A stretch of DNA of 43,579 bases from a virus (IMGVR_UViG_3300044262_000014:1-43579); one strand, 5' to 3'. Counted from the first letter of the stretch, positions 885 through 42,964 are shown. A program made the numbers and translations. The notes: generated by a model from the letters alone, not told the origin.

Positions 885-1865
885 TCAGGCTAGCTTGTCG
901 GCCAGCTCTTCAATATCAGGCTGGTAATAGACAGCCTGCAGAATGCGCAGGTCGCGGTGGCCGGACACTTTTGCCAGCTCCATCACGGTGAAGCGCTTTG
1001 ATAGCCTGGTAAGGGCGGTGCGGCGGGTGTCGTGGAACGTGAAGCCTGCCAGCATTGCGCGGGCCTTGGCTTTACGGAACAGCGCGTCAATCTGCGCCGG
1101 GGTGATGGCAAATATCAGGTCGCCAGCGGCGGGCGCGTGATCGCCGCGTAGCCTGGCAACGATTTCCATGGCCTTGCTGGATAACGGGACGCGGCGCTCG
1201 CTGCCGTTTTTCGTCAGCGGCAGGTGGGCCACCCTGCCGGCAATATCCTGCCAGCGCAGGCCGCAGATTTCGCCGGCGCGCATCGCCGTCTCGATGGCAA
1301 ACAGGAAAGCAGCGCCGACGCGGCCGGTAACCGTGCTGTAATCCTGCCCAAGCGCGTACAGGATGGCATCTATCTCACTGTCGGAAATAACCCGGCTGCG
1401 CGGCTTTGGCGGGGGCGGGCGGCTGACATCCTCCATCGGGTGCAATTTCAGCCAGTGCCATTCCTTTTTGGCAATCGAGCAGGCGTGCGAAAGCAGCGTC
1501 CATTCCCGGCGCACAGTGCCTGCTGTGACCGCGCGCAAGCGCCTGTCGCGCCATTCAGCGAAGTGAGGCGGGGATAGATCGGAAAGGCGGACAGCGGCGA
1601 TGCTGTCGCGGCACAGAAGGCCAATTTTGACGCGCTCCCAGCGAGAGCCGCGCTTTTTGGGTGATACCGTGTCGGCGTAGCGCTTAAGGAGATCCCCGAA
1701 CGTTTTGTCGGGGACTTGGCCGAGCTTCCCGGCTAGAATCTCCGCCTCGATTTTTGCAGCCCAAACCTGCGCGGCTGCCTTCGTGGGGAATGTAGCGGAC
1801 TGCCGGCCTCCGCCTTTGGCAACTTCTACCCGCCAAGTGTTCCCGCGCTTTCTGAAGCTTGCCAT
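885..1865 (-). CDS. int: Tyrosine recombinase / phage integrase
   Basis: Catalytic set R (TAMRAGE), K (TKNG), HxxR (HDTRR), H (GHRD), Y (VYYQP); N-terminal arm-binding-like MASFRKRGNTWRVEV; adjacent to attP. Confidence 0.95.
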   Translation of the reverse strand: MASFRKRGNTWRVEVAKGGGRQSATFPTKAAAQVWAAKIEAEILAGKLGQVPDKTFGDLLKRYADTVSPKKRGSRWERVKIGLLCRDSIAAVRLSDLSPPHFAEWRDRRLRAVTAGTVRREWTLLSHACSIAKKEWHWLKLHPMEDVSRPPPPKPRSRVISDSEIDAILYALGQDYSTVTGRVGAAFLFAIETAMRAGEICGLRWQDIAGRVAHLPLTKNGSERRVPLSSKAMEIVARLRGDHAPAAGDLIFAITPAQIDALFRKAKARAMLAGFTFHDTRRTALTRLSKRFTVMELAKVSGHRDLRILQAVYYQPDIEELADKLA

Positions 1866-2049
1866 TGGCGGAATTTGTGGCGGGCTGGTGGCGTAGTGGG
1901 GGCGGGGGTTCCCGGTGATTATAGGGTGAATCTGGTGTTGATTCTACGGGGATTTACTGGGGCGCGGAGCGCTGCTGGTGCCGAGAAGAGGCAGCAGATT
2001 TTCAATGCAATCAGGCGCTTGTGCGCGATTGGCGTAATTTTGGCGGGGC
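1865..2049. repeat. Integrase arm-type direct repeats flanking the attP core
   Basis: TTGGCGGAATTTGTGGCGGG (~1865-1884) and TTGGCGTAATTTTGGCGGGG (~2029-2048), plus TGGCGTAG at ~1889. Confidence 0.6.
1976..1991 (-). other. attP core matching a tRNA 3' end (probably tRNA-Leu)
   Basis: Minus strand reads CCTCTTCTCGGCACCA, i.e. T-stem 3' half, acceptor stem and CCA as I recall them in betaproteobacterial tRNA-Leu. It lies in the intergenic gap next to int. Confidence 0.75.
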
Positions 2050-2061
2050 CGCATGCCAATC

Positions 2062-2280
2062 TCATGCGCGGCCCGTCTGATCCATCATCACGGCGCGGGC
2101 CAGCGCTTCGCATGTCGGGCATGGGCTTGCATTGCCTTCAGCTGCCACTTTTGCGTGTTTCATCGCGGCCTTCCATGCCACCTTCCAGTTGTCCCATGCG
2201 ACGGATGTCTGGATGTCCATATCGTCGCACACCTCAAAGCCGTGCCATTTTTCAAATTCTCTTCGCATCAGCGACTTCAT
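2062..2280 (-). CDS. Hypothetical protein
   Basis: 72 aa ORF with ATGA coupling to the upstream gene; C-terminal CPTC. Confidence 0.65.
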   Translation of the reverse strand: MKSLMRREFEKWHGFEVCDDMDIQTSVAWDNWKVAWKAAMKHAKVAAEGNASPCPTCEALARAVMMDQTGRA

Positions 2281-2579
2281 AGCTCATCCTTTCTCGGCGC
2301 AAGGCCGGTTGTTTCTGTGTCGGTCACTTTCTTCATCACTGAAAATTTCAACGTTGTAATGTCGTACCCTCTTGCCTCGAGTTCCTGCCGCAAAGTCCGT
2401 CCGTCTTCGGGGAACAACACGGTGCGCTCGAAAGCAATTGCAAGCATCCTGCTGTCGCGCTTCATCCCGCATTCGTTGTCCGGGTAGCAGTAAAACAAGT
2501 CCTCGTCGCCGTACTCTTTCCCGTACTTGACGAGCAGTTCCCCGTCTTTCGCTTTTGGTGTTCTGAGCCTCTTTCGCAT
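2277..2579 (-). CDS. Hypothetical protein
   Basis: 100 aa ORF with RBS GGAGG. Confidence 0.75.
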   Translation of the reverse strand: MRKRLRTPKAKDGELLVKYGKEYGDEDLFYCYPDNECGMKRDSRMLAIAFERTVLFPEDGRTLRQELEARGYDITTLKFSVMKKVTDTETTGLAPRKDEL

Positions 2580-2599
2580 AGTTCCTCCAGTTTAAAACC

Positions 2600-2624
2600 G
2601 CCTAGCCCGGCGGTGAAGCCGGAC
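2600..2624 (+). repeat. attC-like element A (left half only)
   Basis: GCCTAGC-CCGGC-GGTGAAGC-CGGAC resembles R''-spacer-L'' of integron attC sites, with AAC changed to AGC. Confidence 0.45.
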
Positions 2625-2633
2625 TATGTGTTG

Positions 2634-2909
2634 TCATCTTGCCGTCGCGTGTCGAATTCTGTCGAATACCTCGCCAGCCCAAACCCGCTCATCGCCAACT
2701 GGACACTCTACGAAGAACTCGTGCCATGCCTTCTCAGCCTCACGCAGCTTCTCGTGCGCTATTCGTCGAGCAGATTCCAATTGCTGTTCAGGGGTCGCAC
2801 GAGGCGGATGATCGGCCATCGGCTTACGCACGTCGTGATTGCAATAGTTGTTGCAGTGCGCATCACCTGGTATGCAATCCACGCCGCAAATCATCACTTT
2901 CTTAGTCAT
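2634..2909 (-). CDS. Hypothetical Cys-containing protein
   Basis: RBS AGGAG before the ATG at 2909; lies between attC-like elements A and B. Confidence 0.7.
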   Translation of the reverse strand: MTKKVMICGVDCIPGDAHCNNYCNHDVRKPMADHPPRATPEQQLESARRIAHEKLREAEKAWHEFFVECPVGDERVWAGEVFDRIRHATAR

Positions 2910-2940
2910 CGTTTTTCTCCTGCGGCTGTCTAGGGTCGCC

Positions 2941-2997
2941 GCCAAACCCTACATTTCGGCGGGACCGCTGCGCGGTACCTGAATTACATCGCCGGGC
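2941..2997 (+). repeat. attC-like element B (full length, 57 bp, degenerate)
   Basis: GCCAAAC-N5-ATTTCGG-C-GGGACCGC-TGC-GCGGTAC-CTGAAT-N6-GCCGGGC: imperfect palindrome with R''/L''/L'/R' spacing and an extra base in L''. Confidence 0.6.
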
Positions 2998-3176
2998 GTC
3001 GCGGTGCTATCAGTTTTTATGGCGCGCGGATCGCTTGGGAATAAGTTAGAACGCACCCATTGTTTGTATCGCGCATCGTATCTTCCGCACTCCACGCATG
3101 GGCCAAGCGGAACCATCGTATAAACCTCGTGCCTCTGGTATTCTGGGAAACATTCCTCACAAAGAGTGATCGCCAT
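2949..3176 (-). CDS. Hypothetical zinc-binding protein (two CxxC)
   Basis: CEEC and CVEC motifs; TGATG coupling; the C-terminus is read through attC-like B. Confidence 0.6.
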   Translation of the reverse strand: MAITLCEECFPEYQRHEVYTMVPLGPCVECGRYDARYKQWVRSNLFPSDPRAIKTDSTATPGDVIQVPRSGPAEM

Positions 3177-3469
3177 CACACCGCTTGACCGCATTTATTG
3201 CAGATTGACCCGCATGGTGCTAAGTAGTTGCACCCATGATGCTCAACCCCGCGACACGGCTTATTAAGTACCCCTCGCGCTTTCCAGGACTCAAGAGCAG
3301 TCTCTTTTTTAGAGGTGAATGGATTGTCGCAAAACGTGCCTTCCATTCGCCACCACTTTTCAAACGCCTCCCGCTCCATTTTTTCAAGCATGACGGCGAG
3401 CTCATCATTCAAGCGGGACTGCCAATCTGCGTGTTCTTTGTAGTTCGGTTGTTCTACATCCGGCCCCAT
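3176..3469 (-). CDS. Hypothetical protein with Cys-rich C-terminus
   Basis: 97 aa ORF ending CNYLAPCGSICNKCG. Confidence 0.65.
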   Translation of the reverse strand: MGPDVEQPNYKEHADWQSRLNDELAVMLEKMEREAFEKWWRMEGTFCDNPFTSKKETALESWKARGVLNKPCRGVEHHGCNYLAPCGSICNKCGQAV

Positions 3470-3491
3470 TTCATCCTACCTTTCTGCGGAA

Positions 3492-3518
3492 GCGCCGCCG
3501 TTTACTTTTGCGTTGGGT
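3492..3518 (+). repeat. attC-like element C (right half only)
   Basis: GCCGTTTAC-TTTTGC-GTTGGGT: L'-spacer-R' with a perfect GTTRRRY at 3512-3518; intergenic. Confidence 0.5.
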
Positions 3519-3522
3519 GTCA

Positions 3523-3909
3523 CTAGCGACGCACCTTTCCGCTTCGGTATTTCTGCTGCGGCCCATGTGCCTGGCGTTTATCATCAACACATCCAAGCGG
3601 AGTAAGCTCATCGAGCCACGCTCGGGTTATCTCCGGTTTTCGGGTAATCGGGAGCTCGTTCGCTTGCACAACGTCGGCGCCGGCCGCAATCAGCGCAGCG
3701 GCAATCGCTACACTCCGCTTCCCCGCGCCAACTACCAAGATTCGTTTCTTATCCAGACGCGCATCACGAAGGCATCCTTGCTTTCCTTCCGATGGGTATA
3801 GACAAGGAGCGCTTCCATCGTTTCCGTTGCAAGCCGGGCATAGCCCTGCGGCCGAGCCGGGCTCCTCACTACGCTGCGCTTCGTTCGCTCCGGCTTCGTA
3901 TGTGCTCAT
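3523..3909 (-). CDS. Hypothetical protein
   Basis: ATGA-coupled to xis; the N-terminus (GANEAQRSEEPGSAAGLCP) is translated from attC-like D. Confidence 0.65.
   Translation of the reverse strand: MSTYEAGANEAQRSEEPGSAAGLCPACNGNDGSAPCLYPSEGKQGCLRDARLDKKRILVVGAGKRSVAIAAALIAAGADVVQANELPITRKPEITRAWLDELTPLGCVDDKRQAHGPQQKYRSGKVRR
3838..3897 (+). repeat. attC-like element D (R''-L''-central region-L', R' eroded)
   Basis: GCATAGC-CCTGC-GGCCGAGCCGG...CACTACGCTGCGCTTCGTTCG...CCGGCTTC; GAGCCGG pairs with CCGGCT(T)C. Confidence 0.5.
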
Positions 3910-4124
3910 GTTGCTCCCTCCCTGCATGATTCAAGATGCTCAGCAACATCGCGGAAATCCGCATACCGCTTGCCGCCATCGAGATATGTTTTAACCGGGA
4001 ACGTTCCCGCCCCCACCTGGTTGTAAATTGTGTTTTTCGCAATGCCGAGCGCTTTGGCCAGCTGATCCATATTCAGCCGCGCCCCGTATTTGTCGAACAC
4101 GAAGGCTTCGAGCACTAAACTCAT
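3906..4124 (-). CDS. Excisionase / AlpA-like winged-helix DNA-binding protein
   Basis: LNMDQLAKALGIAKNTIYNQVGAGTFP HTH pattern; 72 aa; near int/attP. Confidence 0.75.
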   Translation of the reverse strand: MSLVLEAFVFDKYGARLNMDQLAKALGIAKNTIYNQVGAGTFPVKTYLDGGKRYADFRDVAEHLESCREGAT

Positions 4125-4390
4125 TTCAGTAGTTCCTTTCGTTTTTTCGCACTCTTTGCTGCATTCTTGGCTCTGTGGCAATCCGTGCACAATGTGCCTT
4201 GCACGTTCCCGTTTTTCGTCGTGTGACGCTTGGGATGCCCGCATTTCGAACAAGGCTTGGACGCGTTGCGTGCATAGCTTTCATTCACCGTTACCGTTTT
4301 TTTCTGCAGGATTCTCTGATGCGCCACGACTTGCGGCTTGGGCCAGTGCGCTGGTATTGGCGGGATGAAGATGTCAGCGAGGGTGGGCAT
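4121..4390 (-). CDS. Hypothetical protein with two CxxC motifs
   Basis: CSKC and CTDC; coupled to both ssb and xis. Confidence 0.6.
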   Translation of the reverse strand: MPTLADIFIPPIPAHWPKPQVVAHQRILQKKTVTVNESYARNASKPCSKCGHPKRHTTKNGNVQGTLCTDCHRAKNAAKSAKKRKELLK

Positions 4391-4881
4391 TACACGACCC
4401 GCCATGAGAATTTATACGGGTCTTGGAACGGGATATCATCGTCAAAGTTGTCGAAGTTGCCCGTGCGTGCCGGAGCTGGCTTCCCTGCTGTCGCGGGTTT
4501 GCGAGCCTGCGGTGCGCTAGAGTCAGAGCCTTGATCTTGATGATCGCCGCCGGACTTGCTGCCCAGCATCTGCATCTCGTTGACGATGATCTCGGTGGTG
4601 TAGCGATCCTGGCCTTCCTTGGTCTGCCATTTGCGCGTTTGCAGCTTGCCTTCGATGTAGACCTGCGAGCCTTTTTTCAGGTACTCGCCAGCAACCTCGG
4701 CCAGGCGGCGGTAGAACACTAGGTTATGCCACTCGGTTTTCTCTTGCTTCTCGCCGGATTTGTCTTTCCAGTTTTCCGATGTTGCAAGCGTAGCGTTGGT
4801 AACCGCCTCGCCATTGGTCATGTACCTGGTTTCCGGGTCTTTGCCCAGCCTCCCGACGAGGATTACTTTATTCACTGACAT
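4390..4881 (-). CDS. ssb: Single-stranded DNA-binding protein
   Basis: [21 protein letters not shown] and acidic DNFDDDIPF motifs, with a short extension after DIPF. Confidence 0.97.
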
Positions 4882-5270
4882 ACTGTTTCCCTTCCATTAA
4901 TTGCCGCAATTACGGCGTGGCACCCGTCCACGTCCAGCATCCCGATGTGCATATTCGCGACCGATACCCCGAGCGCATCCGCCAGCCATGCATAGGCCTC
5001 TGTTCTGGTCATATCGCCTGACTTCCACAGCGGATCAAACGCTGCATGTGCTGCTTGCTTCCACTTGCGCAGCTCGGCATTTGCCAGGCGGCCAAGCGGC
5101 TCCGTGCCGTCCTGATTGTGCTTTCTGCTGCGGGGGTGGCATCCGACCCATGCATTGCAGTTCGCGCAGTGCCAGAACTTTTTGCCAACGAGGTCATGGC
5201 GATGCGGATACAGCACAGACCCGTTGACCAGCTTTGCCGGGCGATGGCAATAGTCGCAGGTAATTGTCAT
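4872..5270 (-). CDS. Zinc-finger protein (DUF3268-like)
   Basis: CDYC...[30 protein letters not shown] and HIG motifs. Confidence 0.8.
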
Positions 5271-6202
5271 GGCATTACCTCTGGATAGCCGTCGTGCCGC
5301 ACGCCATCGAGCAGGCGGCCGGCGGCTTTCTTGCTGAATCGGCGCGAAACTTCGCCGTCACGCCAACCATCAGCCGTTCCTCCGGGCCACGCGAACCATT
5401 CCCCGTTCTGTCCTGGCATGGTAATGGCGCCACTGTCGCGCTCCGCGGGCGCCCACTCGCCCCATTGCTTGAACAGGAACGGCACGCCGGCCGCCGCACA
5501 CTGATCGCGCAGGCTTCTCGCCCAATCTGGATGCATCGGGCGAGCGTTGTGGCCGCTCTCGCCTCCGACAACAACCCAGTCGAGCATGTCGTGCAAGTGC
5601 CCGATGTTGCGGCGCATCCATTCGGCACCATCCTCGTACTGGATGATGTCAAGCCACCGGCTCAGATCAACCGGCCCAAGCAGCGGCTCCATTGACAGCC
5701 AGCGAACGCGCGCCTTCACACGCAGCAACTTCTGAATGTCGCGGTCAGCTTCCTCCTGATTGACGACGCTGATCCCAAGCCAAACATTGGACGGCAGCGA
5801 CACCGACCAGCGATCGGGAATCATCCGACCTACATTGCTGATGCGTTTGGTAAGAATCAACCATGTCAGGTGCGGCGTGTCGTCGATTAACTTCCACAGG
5901 CGTTCGCGGTGTTCCTGCTGCACCTCGTTGTCGAAAACATCCGCCATGCTGGCGCAGAACACGCGCCACTGGGCTGCCGGGTCTTTCGCTTGCTCTTCGG
6001 CGGCCTTACGGTTCCAGCGAAGCGGCTCGTTCCAGTGCTTGTCGCCAAAGTAGCGACGAGACTCTGCGATGCCCCACTGCGTCCCGAACCTGTTACCAGT
6101 CGCTTCGGCATAGCAGTTGTCGCAGGCCGGGCTGACCTTCGTGCAACCCCACCACGGGTTGAATGTGGAGCGCGTCCATTCGATGTTCGATTTCTCTCCC
6201 AT
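5267..6202 (-). CDS. Phage Gp37/Gp68 (DUF5131) family protein
   Basis: SNIEWT..TFNPWWGCTKVSPACDNCYAE, VFCASMADVF, LTKR, SMEPLLGPV, WVVVGGESG and FKQWG motifs; likely start at 6202. Confidence 0.9.
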   Translation of the reverse strand: MGEKSNIEWTRSTFNPWWGCTKVSPACDNCYAEATGNRFGTQWGIAESRRYFGDKHWNEPLRWNRKAAEEQAKDPAAQWRVFCASMADVFDNEVQQEHRERLWKLIDDTPHLTWLILTKRISNVGRMIPDRWSVSLPSNVWLGISVVNQEEADRDIQKLLRVKARVRWLSMEPLLGPVDLSRWLDIIQYEDGAEWMRRNIGHLHDMLDWVVVGGESGHNARPMHPDWARSLRDQCAAAGVPFLFKQWGEWAPAERDSGAITMPGQNGEWFAWPGGTADGWRDGEVSRRFSKKAAGRLLDGVRHDGYPEVMP

Positions 6203-12684: not shown

Positions 12685-13348
12685 CACATGGCTGGAGCCG
12701 CGCCGGATTCCTGGCTACAGCAAAGAGCTGTCGCTAATGGATCACCTCTTCAACCGCCTCGACGGCTACTACCCGAACCGCTGGCGCGCAGCCTTTGCAG
12801 ATGACAATGCAATCCAGAACTGGCGCGAGGCATGGGCAGATGCATTTGCCGAGGAAGGGCTGACACCGGACGAAATCAGGGTTGGAATCGCACAGTGCCG
12901 CCGAATGTTCGATTGGCCGCCTAGCTTTCCCGAGTTCATCAAGGCGTGCCGGCCGGCGATGGACTACGAGCGCGCCTTCATCGAGGCCGTCGAGCAGCAG
13001 CGCCTGCGGCAGACTGGGAAGGACAAATGGAGCAGCCCGGCGATCTATTGGGCATCCACCACGCTGGGAAACGATATCCAGAGCCACATGTACAGCGCCA
13101 TCAGCAAACGCTGGGCCGCCGCCGTTGATATGGCGCGAGAGAAGATCAAGCGCGGCGATTTGCCGAACGAAGTGCCGCAGCGGATGGATGCACTGCCAGC
13201 TCCGGGCAAGACAACGATCAGCAAGGAACAGGCGGACGTAAACATCGCGCGCATGAAGGCGATGCTCGAGAAGCCAGGAAAGCCGTTCTTCGCTGTTGCC
13301 GTGGAGGATGTGATCGCGGCTCAAGAGGCCAGGGATGGCGATGCATGA
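12659..13348 (+). CDS. Replication protein P-like / helicase loader
   Basis: Follows the initiator; W..AF..EGLT..I..G..CR..DWPPSFPEFIKACRP pattern. Confidence 0.65.
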   Translation: MGALSTSANTWLEPRRIPGYSKELSLMDHLFNRLDGYYPNRWRAAFADDNAIQNWREAWADAFAEEGLTPDEIRVGIAQCRRMFDWPPSFPEFIKACRPAMDYERAFIEAVEQQRLRQTGKDKWSSPAIYWASTTLGNDIQSHMYSAISKRWAAAVDMAREKIKRGDLPNEVPQRMDALPAPGKTTISKEQADVNIARMKAMLEKPGKPFFAVAVEDVIAAQEARDGDA

Positions 13349-17573: not shown

Positions 17574-18824
17574 ATGGCTTTGCAGATTGAATACATAGCA
17601 GTCGCCGATCTGCTGCCATATGCCCGCAACGCGCGCACGCACAGCGATGAGCAGGTTGCGCAGATCGCCGCCAGCATCAAGGAGTTTGGCTTTGTGAACC
17701 CTTGCTTGATTGGCGACGACGGCGTGCTTATCGCCGGACATGGCCGCTTGTCCGCAGCGCGTAAGCTGGGCATGGACAAAGTGCCGTGCATCAGGCTGGA
17801 AGGCTTGAGCGATGCGCAGCGCCGGGCCTTAGTGCTGGCTGATAACAGAATTGCGCTGAATGCAGGCTGGGATGACGAAATGCTGGCCGTCGAGCTGTCC
17901 GACTTGAAACTGGACGGCTTTGATCTGGACCTTCTCGGCTTCGATGATACTGAGCTTGCCGACCTTCTTGCCGAGAAGGAGGAGCCTGCCGCCGGTTTGA
18001 CCGATGATGATGCCACGCCGGAGCCGCCTGCAAATCCGGTGACGGTTGCGGGCGACGTGTGGCTTATGGGCAAGCACCGGCTGATGTGCGGCGATAGCAC
18101 CAGCATTGAGGCGCTGGAAACTTTGTGCCAAGGGCAGCACGTTGACATGTGGCTGACTGATCCGCCATACAACGTCGCCTACGAAGGCAAGACAAAGGAT
18201 GCGCTGAAAATCAAAAACGACGCCATGGGCGACGGTGATTTCAGGCAGTTCCTGCGCGACGCCTATGTTGCAGCAGACGCGGTGATGAAGGCTGGCGCTG
18301 TGTTCTATATCTGGCACGCCGATTCGGAAGGTTATAACTTCCGTGGCGCAGCAAAGGACGCTGGATGGACGGTTCGCCAGTGCTTGGTGTGGAAGAAGCA
18401 AGCGTAGGTTATGGGGCGGCAGGACTACCACTGGAAGCATGAGCCATGCTTGTACGGCTGGAAGGACGGCGCCGGTCATCTATGGGCGAGCGATCGTAAG
18501 CAGACCACAGTGCTGGAGTTCGATAGGCCTGTTCGCAACGGCGAGCACCCAACAATGAAGCCGGTTGCGCTGTTCGAGTACCAGATGCTCAACAATACCA
18601 AGGGTGGCGATCTTGTGCTGGACAGCTTTGGCGGCAGCGGTACAACGGCGATTGCTTGTCAAAAGCACGGCCGCCATGCTCGCCTGATGGAACTAGACCC
18701 AAAATATTGCGACGTGATCGTAAAGCGCTGGCAAGACTTCACCGGGCAGCAGGCCACGCTTGAAGCGGATGGACGCTCCTTTGATGAGGTTGAAGACGAA
18801 AGATTAACAGTAGCGCAAACATGA
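17574..18824 (+). pseudogene. ParB-like domain + DNA amino-methyltransferase interrupted by one in-frame TAG (18405-18407)
   Basis: PYARNARTHS..IAGHGRL ParB domain and TDPPYN motif IV precede the stop. The same frame resumes VMGRQDYHWKHEP..HPTMKP..DSFGGSGTT (motif I). Confidence 0.85.
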
Positions 18825-41152: not shown

Positions 41153-42964
41153 CTACTCCCCCTCTTTATTGTTGATCACCAAAACTGCAACATTCACCAT
41201 CGTGCCGCTGGCGGCAAACGAGCCGGGCGGCAAATCCTCCCAATAGTCCACAAGCGGCTTGATGGCGGCTTGCTGGCGCGGGCCGTTTGCGCACAAGGCA
41301 ACCAGCTTCCCGCCGGGCTTGAGCATCGTCATGGCATGCTGGATGTGCTTTATATCCGCGCCATTCTCGAAAGGCGGATTCATCACGATGCGGTCAACCG
41401 GCCAATTCCCCCGGCTGTACTCGAGGAAATCCATGCAGTGCACAACAGTCAGCGGGTATTCTGCGCTCAAGCGCTGCGCCAGCTGCTGGTTGATCTCCAC
41501 AGCGGTTACGCCTGCGGCCTTGTCGTCGGCCATGATGGACTGCAGTAAGTTGCCAGTGCCAGCGCTGGGCTCAAGCACCAGCATGCCGCGCTCGATCTCT
41601 GCCAGCTCAACCATGTACTCGGCAATCGCCGCGGGCGTTGGGAAAAGCTGCGGGGCGCTCACAACCTGCACGCCAGCCTTCAGCTGCTGGCGCATGGCGG
41701 AGAATTCCTGCTCATCTGCTGACTTCACCGGCGGCACATATTCCATGCGCGGTCCAGGTGCTGGCATCGGCTCGCGCTCTACCGCTGCGGGCGGTTCGTG
41801 CGTCTTGCTGTCCGACAGGAACACCGTATACAGCTTGGCGTGGCGATCGCCGTCGCGGCGGATCATCGCCACCTTGACGCGGTGCGAATTGCCGACCACC
41901 CGGGTGCCGCGATAGTCGCTGTGCAGGGCTGAGTATTCGGCCTTGGTCATCACGACCATGGGGTAGCGGTTAAACTCACCGCGCCGCCATGGGTTTTCGA
42001 TCTCCAGCCCGTCCGCCGCCATGTAGTTGCAGATCGGCAGTTGCTTGGGGCGCTCCTTCTTCGCCAGCAGGTGGCTCGCGCCTTGCTCATCCAGCATGGC
42101 CTGCTCGTATGCCAGCCGGTTGTTGTAGTGCTCAATCCAGCGGTCTTGCCATGCAATCGTGCGCGGGTAAACCTTGATGGCATGTGCGACAACCTCGTCA
42201 GCGGTTCGCGGTGCGTATAGGGACGGGTAAGCGTTTGTGAGTACGCTGTGCGCTGTTGGCCGCTGGTCAAAGTCTGGGCGATCACCTTCCTTGCGCGGCA
42301 TGTGCAGCCAGCAGAATCCAGCAATCTCGACGGCGCGCTGGTGCTGTTGGTCACCCGCAAGCTGGCCGCATTCAGTCCACAGCTTGAGCCATTTCGCGGC
42401 CTCGTCCTTATCCCGCTGCGCTTTACGTTTGTCGGCCTCGATGGTCTTGATGCGCCTGGCACGGACGGTTGGCAGCTCCTTGTATTTGGCATGCGCCAGC
42501 GCACCGGCTGCCCGGCTTGTCCAGTATTCGGATGTCTCCCACAGCTTGAGCGCCTTGCGCATGCCGTTCTCGATCTTCTCGGCATCCTTCTCTGCTTTGC
42601 GCTGGCTGTGGTGGCCGATCAGAATAGGCTGCCCCAGCTCGATGCCGCCGGAAATCTCAGCCACGGCCTCGCGGGCGCTGCGGGCTTCGCTGGCCCGCTT
42701 GTCGCTGTATTCGTCAAACCGCTCGGCGCGTTCCTCGGCGCGCTCGACAAGGCTGGTGTCCTCGTCCTCCAGGTCGCCGCACAGCTCCTCGGCGAGATCG
42801 GCGCGCTGGGGTGTCCACATGGGCGCAACGAACAGCTTTTGTTTCGGCGCCCATTTGAACCCGGCGGCATTCACTCGCGCGTAGATGTCCGCGGGCAGCC
42901 GATCGGTCGGGTAGATGCGGATTTTGTTGTCGTCAGGCGAATAGGTGGCGCGTCCGATGCTCAT
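41153..42964 (-). CDS. DUF3560 domain protein fused to a C-terminal DNA amino-methyltransferase
   Basis: ATYSPDDNKIRIY and GQPILIGHHSQR (DUF3560-like); QLFPTP, VLEPSAGTG and VMNPPF MTase motifs. Confidence 0.88.
   Translation of the reverse strand: MSIGRATYSPDDNKIRIYPTDRLPADIYARVNAAGFKWAPKQKLFVAPMWTPQRADLAEELCGDLEDEDTSLVERAEERAERFDEYSDKRASEARSAREAVAEISGGIELGQPILIGHHSQRKAEKDAEKIENGMRKALKLWETSEYWTSRAAGALAHAKYKELPTVRARRIKTIEADKRKAQRDKDEAAKWLKLWTECGQLAGDQQHQRAVEIAGFCWLHMPRKEGDRPDFDQRPTAHSVLTNAYPSLYAPRTADEVVAHAIKVYPRTIAWQDRWIEHYNNRLAYEQAMLDEQGASHLLAKKERPKQLPICNYMAADGLEIENPWRRGEFNRYPMVVMTKAEYSALHSDYRGTRVVGNSHRVKVAMIRRDGDRHAKLYTVFLSDSKTHEPPAAVEREPMPAPGPRMEYVPPVKSADEQEFSAMRQQLKAGVQVVSAPQLFPTPAAIAEYMVELAEIERGMLVLEPSAGTGNLLQSIMADDKAAGVTAVEINQQLAQRLSAEYPLTVVHCMDFLEYSRGNWPVDRIVMNPPFENGADIKHIQHAMTMLKPGGKLVALCANGPRQQAAIKPLVDYWEDLPPGSFAASGTMVNVAVLVINNKEGE

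What the first reader, a model, noticed from the sequence alone, without database searches (positions are those of the whole stretch)
2600..3897. Integron attC-like elements punctuate the phage accessory gene array next to attP
Seen: four co-oriented degenerate elements at or near gene boundaries. A (2600-2624) is a left half, B (2941-2997) a complete 57-bp imperfect palindrome with R''-N5-L''-hairpin-L'-N6-R' geometry and an extra base in L'', C (3492-3518) a right half ending in GTTRRRY, and D (3838-3897) R''-L''-centre-L'. They bracket 1-2 small unknown ORFs each. Known: this geometry defines integron attC sites, recombined as folded ssDNA by IntI. Unusual: the ORFs run antisense to the normal cassette orientation, two ORFs translate through the elements, the conserved AAC/GTT triplets are altered in A, B and D, and the phage has no IntI. 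Inference: a cassette-like gene acquisition/shuffling zone that uses host IntI, or uses the repeats as RecT/YqaJ recombination handles, with sites eroding after capture.
Basis: partly seen in the sequence, partly recalled or inferred. Interest (0 to 1): 0.82.

Follow-up and report, generated by a model that had tools for sequence, protein, structure and literature searches.

The report
Eroded backward integron cassettes in phage
Between this phage's small accessory genes lie worn-down remains of integron-type DNA hairpins; related phages keep the intact version, with their own integron integrase and the genes facing backwards, and likely use it to swap genes such as DNA methylases that would help them evade host defences.

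Summary
The four elements are at the stated coordinates and derive from attC sites; I found two more half-sites (3395-3420, 2288-2325). None is an intact attC: two covariance models give no significant hit, and every site has lost an arm or a core triplet. The phage has no IntI and no attI. Their origin shows in relatives. The gene at 2277-2579 (93% identical in L042) sits there in an array of 13 intact attC sites ending in attI and a co-oriented IntI. Such phage integrons form an IntI clade of 45 sequences with its own attI motif. Their genes lie on the attC bottom strand (PHROG hits 45 of 138 against 2 of 140), and near-identical arrays differ by whole cassettes ending at AA|C. The window is most likely the fossil end state of this system, not an active zone run by host IntI or RecT. 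Phage attC clusters are published (PMC9892861); the inverted, self-sufficient form was not found in nine searches. This scan has noted it before on other DNA. IntI activity is inferred, not assayed.

The parts
885..1865 (-). Phage tyrosine integrase, not an IntI
   Evidence: phrog_1 E 3.9e-58; no TIGR02249 hit
1972..1997 (.). Putative attP core (looks like a tRNA 3' end on the - strand; recalled resemblance, not tested)
   Evidence: sequence; ARAGORN finds no tRNA
2062..2280 (-). ORF, 72 aa, last gene of the array; starts just after site E; no attI follows it
   Evidence: no PHROG or Pfam family; no attI motif
2288..2325 (+). Site E (new): eroded L'/R' arm of a long attC type with an internal ribosome-binding site; R' triplet reads GAC on the bottom strand; partner arm missing
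   Evidence: 23 of 24 nt match the intact L042 4676-4769 site, 0 of 150 controls as high; homologues of the ORF above keep AAC at this junction
2277..2579 (-). Cassette ORF, 100 aa; its C-terminal tail is read from site E
   Evidence: 223 homologues; 93% identical copy between intact attC sites in L042
2600..2624 (+). Site A: R''/L'' arm only; bottom-strand GTT reads GCT, extrahelical G reads C
2634..2909 (-). ORF, 91 aa, Cys/His-rich, between A and B
   Evidence: 17 homologues at 58-71%, none with an attC-type tail; no DNA context found
2941..2997 (+). Site B: the only full-length site; bottom-strand R' AAC reads GGC, extrahelical G reads A, stem mismatched
   Evidence: central stem nearly identical to intact L126 8099-8155; no covariance-model hit
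2949..3176 (-). ORF, 75 aa; C-terminus reads through B
   Evidence: no homologue found
3176..3469 (-). ORF, 97 aa; starts inside the long site C and reads through its R''/L'' arm
3395..3518 (+). Site C, long form: R''/L'' arm at 3395-3420 (new; GTT reads GCT) and L'/R' arm at 3492-3518 (AAC intact); the arms do not pair
   Evidence: matrix scores 11.7 and 15.9 bits; best covariance-model hit, 10.3 bits; folding z +1.1
3523..3909 (-). ORF, 128 aa; N-terminus reads through D, stop codon just before the R' of C
   Evidence: only sub-threshold Pfam hits
3838..3897 (+). Site D: R''-L''-centre-L', R' lost; GTT reads GCT
   Evidence: another contig in the source run matches 3844-3887 and is flanked by intact-looking R'' and R' boxes
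3906..4124 (-). Excisionase-like HTH gene heading the array
   Evidence: HTH_17 above cut-off; a 58% identical gene heads the inverted cassettes and IntI of L132

Best explanation
The elements are likely decayed remnants of a phage-encoded integron array with inverted cassettes, now fixed in place in a phage that has no IntI and no attI. In intact relatives the early operon runs through small genes separated by attC sites into attI and intI (shown). The recombinogenic bottom strand is the coding strand, so each cassette is an upstream attC arm plus ribosome-binding site plus gene, ending at RYYYAA|C, and protein tails are read from the next cassette (shown). The phage IntI would excise and insert cassettes at AA|C (inferred from cassette-precise indels; not assayed). 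This orientation would keep genes under the phage early promoter while putting the bottom strand on the lagging-strand template, the high-turnover setting (inferred). In this lineage intI and attI were likely lost, and the sites then decayed by arm deletion and point change while the genes were kept (inferred).
For: Homologue context: L042 has 13 covariance-model sites, attI and an IntI at 473 bits against a cut-off of 265. All 8 best homologues of ORF 2277-2579, and at least 12 of the top 26, continue with an R'-type junction and differing tails; P0002's tail equals the translation of L042's attI. The gene family abuts attI in L072 and L136 and is internal in L042, L046, L058. Orientation: 179 of 180 model hits in 69 viral IntI loci have the bottom strand on the intI strand; ribosome-binding-site starts lie on the bottom strand 67 to 5 in viral loci and 5 to 31 in bacterial loci; PHROG hits 45 of 138 bottom against 2 of 140 top. 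Hairpin covariation in 68 phage sites: 214 two-sided changes, 0 of 500 shuffles (alignment chosen with an attC model). IntI clade of 45, support 0.99, holding none of 22 canonical-array IntIs. attI motif in 37 of 45 clade loci, 0 of 79 other genome loci; motif-first scan: 31 of 46 loci have intI just downstream. Shuffling: L128 and L129 share five cassettes at 99.5-100% and differ by three whole cassettes; one recurs in L166 at 92.5%. Decay series: truncated intI, and attI with attC but no intI in 5 loci. Window lesions. Fourfold sites of the shared gene differ at 13 of 27 from L042, enough time for unconstrained decay.
Against: No close relative of this phage was found, so loss of intI in this lineage is inferred, not seen. 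Only 1 of 6 array ORFs is tied to intact cassettes elsewhere; the 17 homologues of ORF 2634-2909 show no attC tail and the others have no homologue in my loci. In that one family only 8 of 71 loci have an adjacent site. Longest-ORF length alone does not separate the strands in viral loci (29 bottom, 25 top, 61 ties). 13 of 30 block ends are not at the crossover, several at the R'' end of the upstream site. IntI-less arrays with intact sites exist (L058), so lack of intI does not by itself cause decay. IntI sampling was seeded by one query and the genome scan read 4 of 64 parts. The replication origin and fork direction are not shown; only the GC-skew minimum near 10 kb and the O-like gene at 11.8-12.7 kb are.
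Confidence: 0.8

Rival explanations
1. The lineage never had its own IntI: inverted cassettes from the phage pool were inserted one at a time at secondary sites by an IntI acting in trans (host or co-infecting phage), or arrived as a block by homologous recombination, and then decayed.
For: IntI-less intact arrays (L058, L046, MW202573); IntI inserts cassettes at GWT sites outside integrons (10.1101/2022.09.11.507474, passages); a host integron holds two inverted cassettes (L194); IntI-like contigs occur in the source run; no attI or intI trace in the window.
Against: The array sits directly behind the same excisionase family that heads the complete inverted integron of L132; loci with attI but truncated or missing intI show the loss route exists. 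This rival shares the cassette origin and differs only in history.
Confidence: 0.3
2. The sites are still used at low rate by a host IntI, B in particular, so the zone remains active.
For: B keeps full geometry and its altered R box can pair by G-T wobble; the AAC triplet is described as not important per se but as shared micro-homology (PMC5027507, passages); extrahelical base identity is partly tolerated (PMC3053210, passages).
Against: Excision needs two working sites and A, C, D, E lack a pairing arm; B lacks the AA|C micro-homology, does not fold better than shuffles and has no model hit; 185 of 191 model-called phage sites keep both triplets (biased to intact sites).
Confidence: 0.08
3. 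The elements serve mainly as short homology handles for the phage RecT/YqaJ system.
For: RecT and a RecE-like exonuclease are encoded upstream; several shared blocks in relatives begin 37-92 nt after the crossover, at the R'' end, so genes do get re-joined to other attC arms.
Against: No direct-repeat family among the elements; 17 of 30 block ends lie within 10 nt of AA|C against about 5% expected by hand estimate; compensatory changes preserve the hairpin, not the sequence.
Confidence: 0.07
4. Chance resemblance of GC-rich gene boundaries to a loose attC pattern.
For: No folding or model signal; single halves score no higher than hits elsewhere in the window.
Against: Clustering and common strand; five of five elements in the top 2% of controls; site E lies exactly where homologues have an intact attC or attI.
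Confidence: 0.03

Closest known systems
Phage-borne integrons and CALINs (Qi et al. 2023, PMC9892861; read: results and discussion, find passages, supplement part 1 of 2)
   Same: attC clusters in phage genomes, with or without intI; DNA methyltransferase cargo; five of six assayed phage sites recombined with attI1.
   Different: Their complete integrons are described as captured chromosomal or class 1 pieces. The assayed TJE1 array is canonical when I test it. One of their CALINs (MW202573) is inverted in my test, but the text does not remark on it; figures and the Dryad file were not seen. No phage IntI clade or phage attI is described in what I read.
Canonical sedentary and class 1 integrons (PMC5027507 passages; PMC5371416 abstract and section 6)
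   Same: In the relatives: IntI (TIGR02249), attI next to intI, attC with R and L boxes, extrahelical G, crossover at AA|C, same intI-attI-attC topology.
   Different: Cassette genes are on the bottom strand and read toward intI, within the phage operon; start codons and tails often lie inside attC. In 25 of 30 sedentary integrons the bottom strand is on the leading-strand template; here it is predicted on the lagging one.
Inverted-integrase ('reverse') integrons of Treponema (PMC4889954, PMC4909258, passages)
   Same: intI points the same way as the cassette genes.
   Different: There intI is flipped relative to the attC sites; here intI and attC keep the usual relation and every gene is flipped.
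Degenerate CALINs and SALINs as a step to domestication (PMC4889954; 10.1101/2022.09.11.507474; passages)
   Same: Loss of intI, degenerate or deleted attC, genes retained: the state proposed for the window.
   Different: Described for bacterial chromosomes and canonical orientation; the window's sites are below model detection.

Membership tests
attC site (window elements) | Complementary RYYYAAC and GTTRRRY boxes | tested here: not met
   No site has both triplets: A, C, D GCT; B GGC; E GAC
attC site (window elements) | Paired L''/L' arms with an extrahelical base | tested here: inconclusive
   Present with mismatches in B and D; absent in A, E; arms of C do not pair
attC site (window elements) | Stable bottom-strand hairpin | tested here: not met
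   z -1.2 for B, others weaker; 80 intact phage sites median z -2.95
attC site (window elements) | Significant covariance-model score | tested here: not met
   Own models R1 and R2, not the IntegronFinder model
attC site (window elements) | Descent from attC | tested here: met
attC site (window elements) | Recombined by IntI | not testable with these tools
   needs an assay
CALIN (window) | No integron integrase nearby | tested here: met
CALIN (window) | Two or more detectable attC sites | tested here: not met
   a degenerate remnant only
Complete integron (relatives, e.g. L042) | IntI-family integrase | tested here: met
   TIGR02249 473 bits, cut-off 265, for L042; others by tblastn and tree
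Complete integron (relatives, e.g. L042) | attI site beside intI | tested here: met
   conserved motif starting at AAC, variable sequence before it; function not assayed
Complete integron (relatives, e.g. L042) | Co-oriented attC array with cassette-precise gain and loss | tested here: met
Complete integron (relatives, e.g. L042) | Cassette genes on the attC top strand, read away from intI | tested here: not met
Complete integron (relatives, e.g. L042) | Pc promoter driving the array | not tested
   no scan of relatives; none found in window 1860-4400
Inverted-integrase (Treponema-type) integron | [quoted passage not shown] | tested here: not met
   bottom strand lies on the intI strand as in bacterial loci
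Recombineering-type homology handles (RecT/Red) | Shared direct repeats between exchange points | tested here: not met
   block ends at AA|C in relatives

The most novel reading that the evidence does not exclude
Temperate phages of Betaproteobacteria run their own class of integron: a dedicated IntI clade, its own attI, and mirror-image cassettes set for high turnover, which sample counter-defence genes (DNA methylases, Mom, Lar) as a mirror of host anti-phage integrons. It turns ordinary phage genes into cassettes, leaks them into host integrons, and lets them settle as fixed genes. This window is the settled end state, and many short attC-like protein ends in phage early operons are its fossils.
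Probability: 0.55. Interest if true: 0.88.

Novelty: new variant of a known kind. Interest (0 to 1): 0.72.

Why it matters
Integrons are viewed as bacterial devices whose strand choice exists to keep cassette genes in one orientation (PMC5027507). A phage clade that keeps the same recombination parts but flips every gene would give phages a site-specific way to rebuild their accessory region, with cargo that looks like counter-defence (10 DNA methylases, 3 Mom-like, 2 Lar-like, 2 PAPS-reductase-like among 45 PHROG hits). It also makes two open questions testable: how genes become cassettes (one gene family is found with and without sites across its tree) and how cassettes are domesticated. The window itself is only the fossil: it shows that such arrays can decay below the reach of attC models, so current counts of phage integrons are likely too low.

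Tried and rejected
Rfam scan of 1800-4500: three chance snoRNA hits. No similar DNA in annotated phages. Viral scan with ORF 2634-2909: no relative. Excisionase relatives L001-L003 have no array. Integrase relatives reach only 49%; I did not analyse those five loci further. ORF 2949: no homologue (query lacked its first codon). In one search ORF 3523 was translated in a wrong frame; redone, no hit. Longest-ORF test of coding strand was uninformative for viral loci, so I used ribosome-binding-site starts and PHROG hits. Idea that GTT to GCT in three of four arms shows selection to lock cassettes: not supported; 7 of 32 conserved positions are hit, a hand count gives about 0.2 for three in one column, the change is a Leu-to-Leu codon change in D, and the shared gene also leans AT to GC against L042 (13 against 6 of 22 listed differences). 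Five heuristic attC calls elsewhere in the window are weak and inside genes; rejected. No sigma-70 promoter and no terminator excess in the array. Atlas searches gave only leads under 0.9. Sequencing runs: one DNA run, possibly the source, with no differences over the array; no RNA holder listed. Tree run 54 returned nothing and was redone. IntegronFinder's own model was not available.

Full report
Setting. The window is a whole 43,579-base genome of a temperate, contractile-tailed phage: integrase, SSB, RecE-like and RecT genes and a repressor on the - strand, then replication, packaging, tail and lysis genes on +. Six small ORFs without PHROG or above-threshold Pfam family lie between an excisionase-like gene (3906-4124) and the integrase.

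Checking the observation. As folded DNA none stands out. I built a covariance model from 51 attC sites of bacterial integrons (51 of 81 short candidate sites, thinning near-identical Xanthomonadales sites and dropping doubtful calls). It finds 45 sites at E below 0.01 in six related phage loci but nothing significant in the window. A second model from 68 phage sites does no better. So these are not intact attC sites. As half-sites they are real: 4 of 13 window-wide R''/L'' hits fall in the 1.9-kb region on one strand, shuffles rarely match them, and each of five elements beats 98% or more of 150 control windows against a library of 137 phage sites. Two halves are new: 3395-3420 and 2288-2325. 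Every site has a lesion in a core triplet or lacks a pairing arm. The source contig shows the same letters (possibly the same data, so not independent).

What the relatives show. ORF 2277-2579 has 223 homologues. The closest end in different tails that all begin where window site E begins. DNA context explains this. Locus L042 is a row of phage-type ORFs separated by 13 intact attC sites, followed by an attI-like site and a co-oriented IntI. Using that IntI as query gave 71 viral and 80 bacterial-genome loci. In both sets the attC bottom strand is on the intI strand, the usual topology. The genes differ: ribosome-binding-site starts are on the bottom strand in viral loci (67 to 5 over 115 intervals) and on the top strand in bacterial loci (5 to 31 over 95 intervals). 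Longest-ORF length was ambiguous for viral loci, so I scanned the longest ORF of each strand in 145 inter-site intervals against PHROGs: 45 of 138 bottom-strand and 2 of 140 top-strand ORFs hit. Before this count I dropped L148 (a canonical array), one opposite-strand hit, two partial hits and four redundant loci. Annotated cargo is 10 DNA methylases, 3 Mom-like, 3 DHH phosphoesterases, 2 Lar-like, 2 PAPS-reductase-like, an exonuclease and a protease-like hit; the rest are unknown families.

A dedicated integrase and attI. Of 136 distinct IntI sequences, 45 form one clade (FastTree support 0.99) made of viral contigs plus L042, L072 and one Sulfuricella MAG contig; none of 22 IntIs with canonical arrays is inside, and two with inverted cassettes (L158, L194) are outside. 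Labels were set by me, and the sample is biased toward the query. A motif beginning at AAC lies just upstream of intI in 37 of 45 clade loci and 0 of 79 other genome loci, with unrelated gene ends before the AAC; the motif was drawn from those loci, so I also searched motif-first: 31 of 46 viral loci have intI, whole or truncated, right behind it, and 5 of the other 15 still have upstream attC (many of the 46 are contigs already found). The window has neither motif nor IntI.

Evidence of shuffling. Among 22 shared blocks between arrays, 15 remain after removing duplicate loci; 17 of their 30 ends lie within 10 nt of an AA|C crossover, against roughly 5% expected from cassette length (hand estimate, pairs not independent). 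L128 and L129 share five cassettes at 99.5-100% and differ by three whole cassettes; one cassette recurs in L166 at 92.5%. The window's own gene family is the first cassette at attI in L072 and L136 and internal in L042, L046 and L058. Against a simple picture: 13 ends are elsewhere, and only 8 of 71 loci of that family have an adjacent site, scattered over its tree (7 changes, shuffled mean 8.7).

Mechanism. Shown: anatomy, orientation, IntI family, attI motif, cassette-precise indels, lesions in the window. From established knowledge: IntI cuts the folded bottom strand between A and C of AAC in R' (PMC5027507), and a bottom strand on the lagging template folds and recombines more (PMC5371416). 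Inferred: the phage IntI does the shuffling; the genes are read from the phage early promoter toward intI; with an origin near the O-like gene and a leftward fork, the coding strand is the lagging template, so inversion joins co-directional expression with high turnover. Inferred for the window: the array, which follows the same excisionase family as the complete integron in L132, lost attI and intI, and its sites decayed while genes stayed. Fourfold sites of the shared gene differ at 13 of 27 from L042, so there was time. Whether this lineage ever had its own intI cannot be settled without close relatives.

Comparison with what is known. Qi et al. 2023 (PMC9892861) report phage integrons and CALINs and show that phage attC sites recombine. 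Their assayed TJE1 array is canonical in my test; their MW202573 array is inverted, without comment in the text. I did not see their figures, part 2 of the supplement or the Dryad annotation file, which could show the orientation. Treponema-type integrons flip intI, not the genes. Degenerate CALINs as a step to fixation were proposed in PMC4889954 and 10.1101/2022.09.11.507474 (passages; preprint supplements closed). PMC13366799 only mentions screening for phage integrons (passages). Nine literature searches showed no paper on inverted-cassette phage integrons; the library lacks most subscription papers. Earlier notes of this scan describe the same system on other genomes (seen after my reading was set); none covers this genome or the eroded state.

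Verdict. The window holds a fossil, not a working site cluster: it is not a CALIN by test, but it descends from one. The system it points to is a new variant of the integron with good comparative support and no experiment yet. Interest 0.72.

Noticed in passing
L194:355-4444 (Halothiobacillus MAG): A host chromosomal integron with canonical cassettes (AAA domain, GFA, BrnT-like toxin-antitoxin) also holds two bottom-strand cassettes at 3048-3359 and 3390-3776, one in phrog_1273, the family of window ORF 68-523: possible flow from the phage pool to a host array.
   Followed up: partly
L275:2069-3738 (MW202573): A published phage CALIN is of the inverted type; TJE1 (L274:244-1519) is canonical.
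   Followed up: yes
L123:11610-13345: A second inverted array lies downstream of intI and appears to end in another attI-like junction before the phage integrase.
   Followed up: no
L302:1500-2420 and L285: Two attI motifs 902 nt apart around a truncated intI (residues 1-126), suggesting attI by attI events.
   Followed up: no
L146:7302-7419, L129:5814-5907, L042:4676-4769: Long attC types carry a ribosome-binding site and start codon inside the hairpin loop, so the site supplies the translation start of its gene.
   Followed up: partly
L042:5000-5091 and other clade loci: The phage attI holds repeated GACA...TGTC inverted and direct repeats between the crossover and the intI start; possible integrase or regulator sites.
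   Followed up: no
L158, L174, L188: Inverted arrays next to an IntI outside the phage clade (L158) or a partial IntI (L174, L188); L174 has three methylase cassettes.
   Followed up: no
L273 (Virus Rctr41k, KX853513) 4680-5678: IntI-like gene (46.7% to L042 IntI) co-oriented with small ORFs, but no attC hit with my model.
   Followed up: partly
window:12679-12701: Highest R''/L'' matrix score in the window (14.1 bits, + strand) at the end of the O-like gene, with an opposite-strand L'/R' hit at 12701; no model hit; unexplained.
   Followed up: no
window:17574-18824: ParB-plus-methylase gene (phrog_498) is split into two ORFs, 17574-18407 and 18411-18824.
   Followed up: no
window:1861-1885 and 2025-2049: Imperfect 25-nt direct repeat on both sides of the putative attP core; possible integrase arm sites.
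   Followed up: no
window:13628-15383, 41153-42964: Three further DNA-methylase-like genes outside the array; the 13628 and 14703 families occur as cassettes in relatives L160, L125 and L174.
   Followed up: partly
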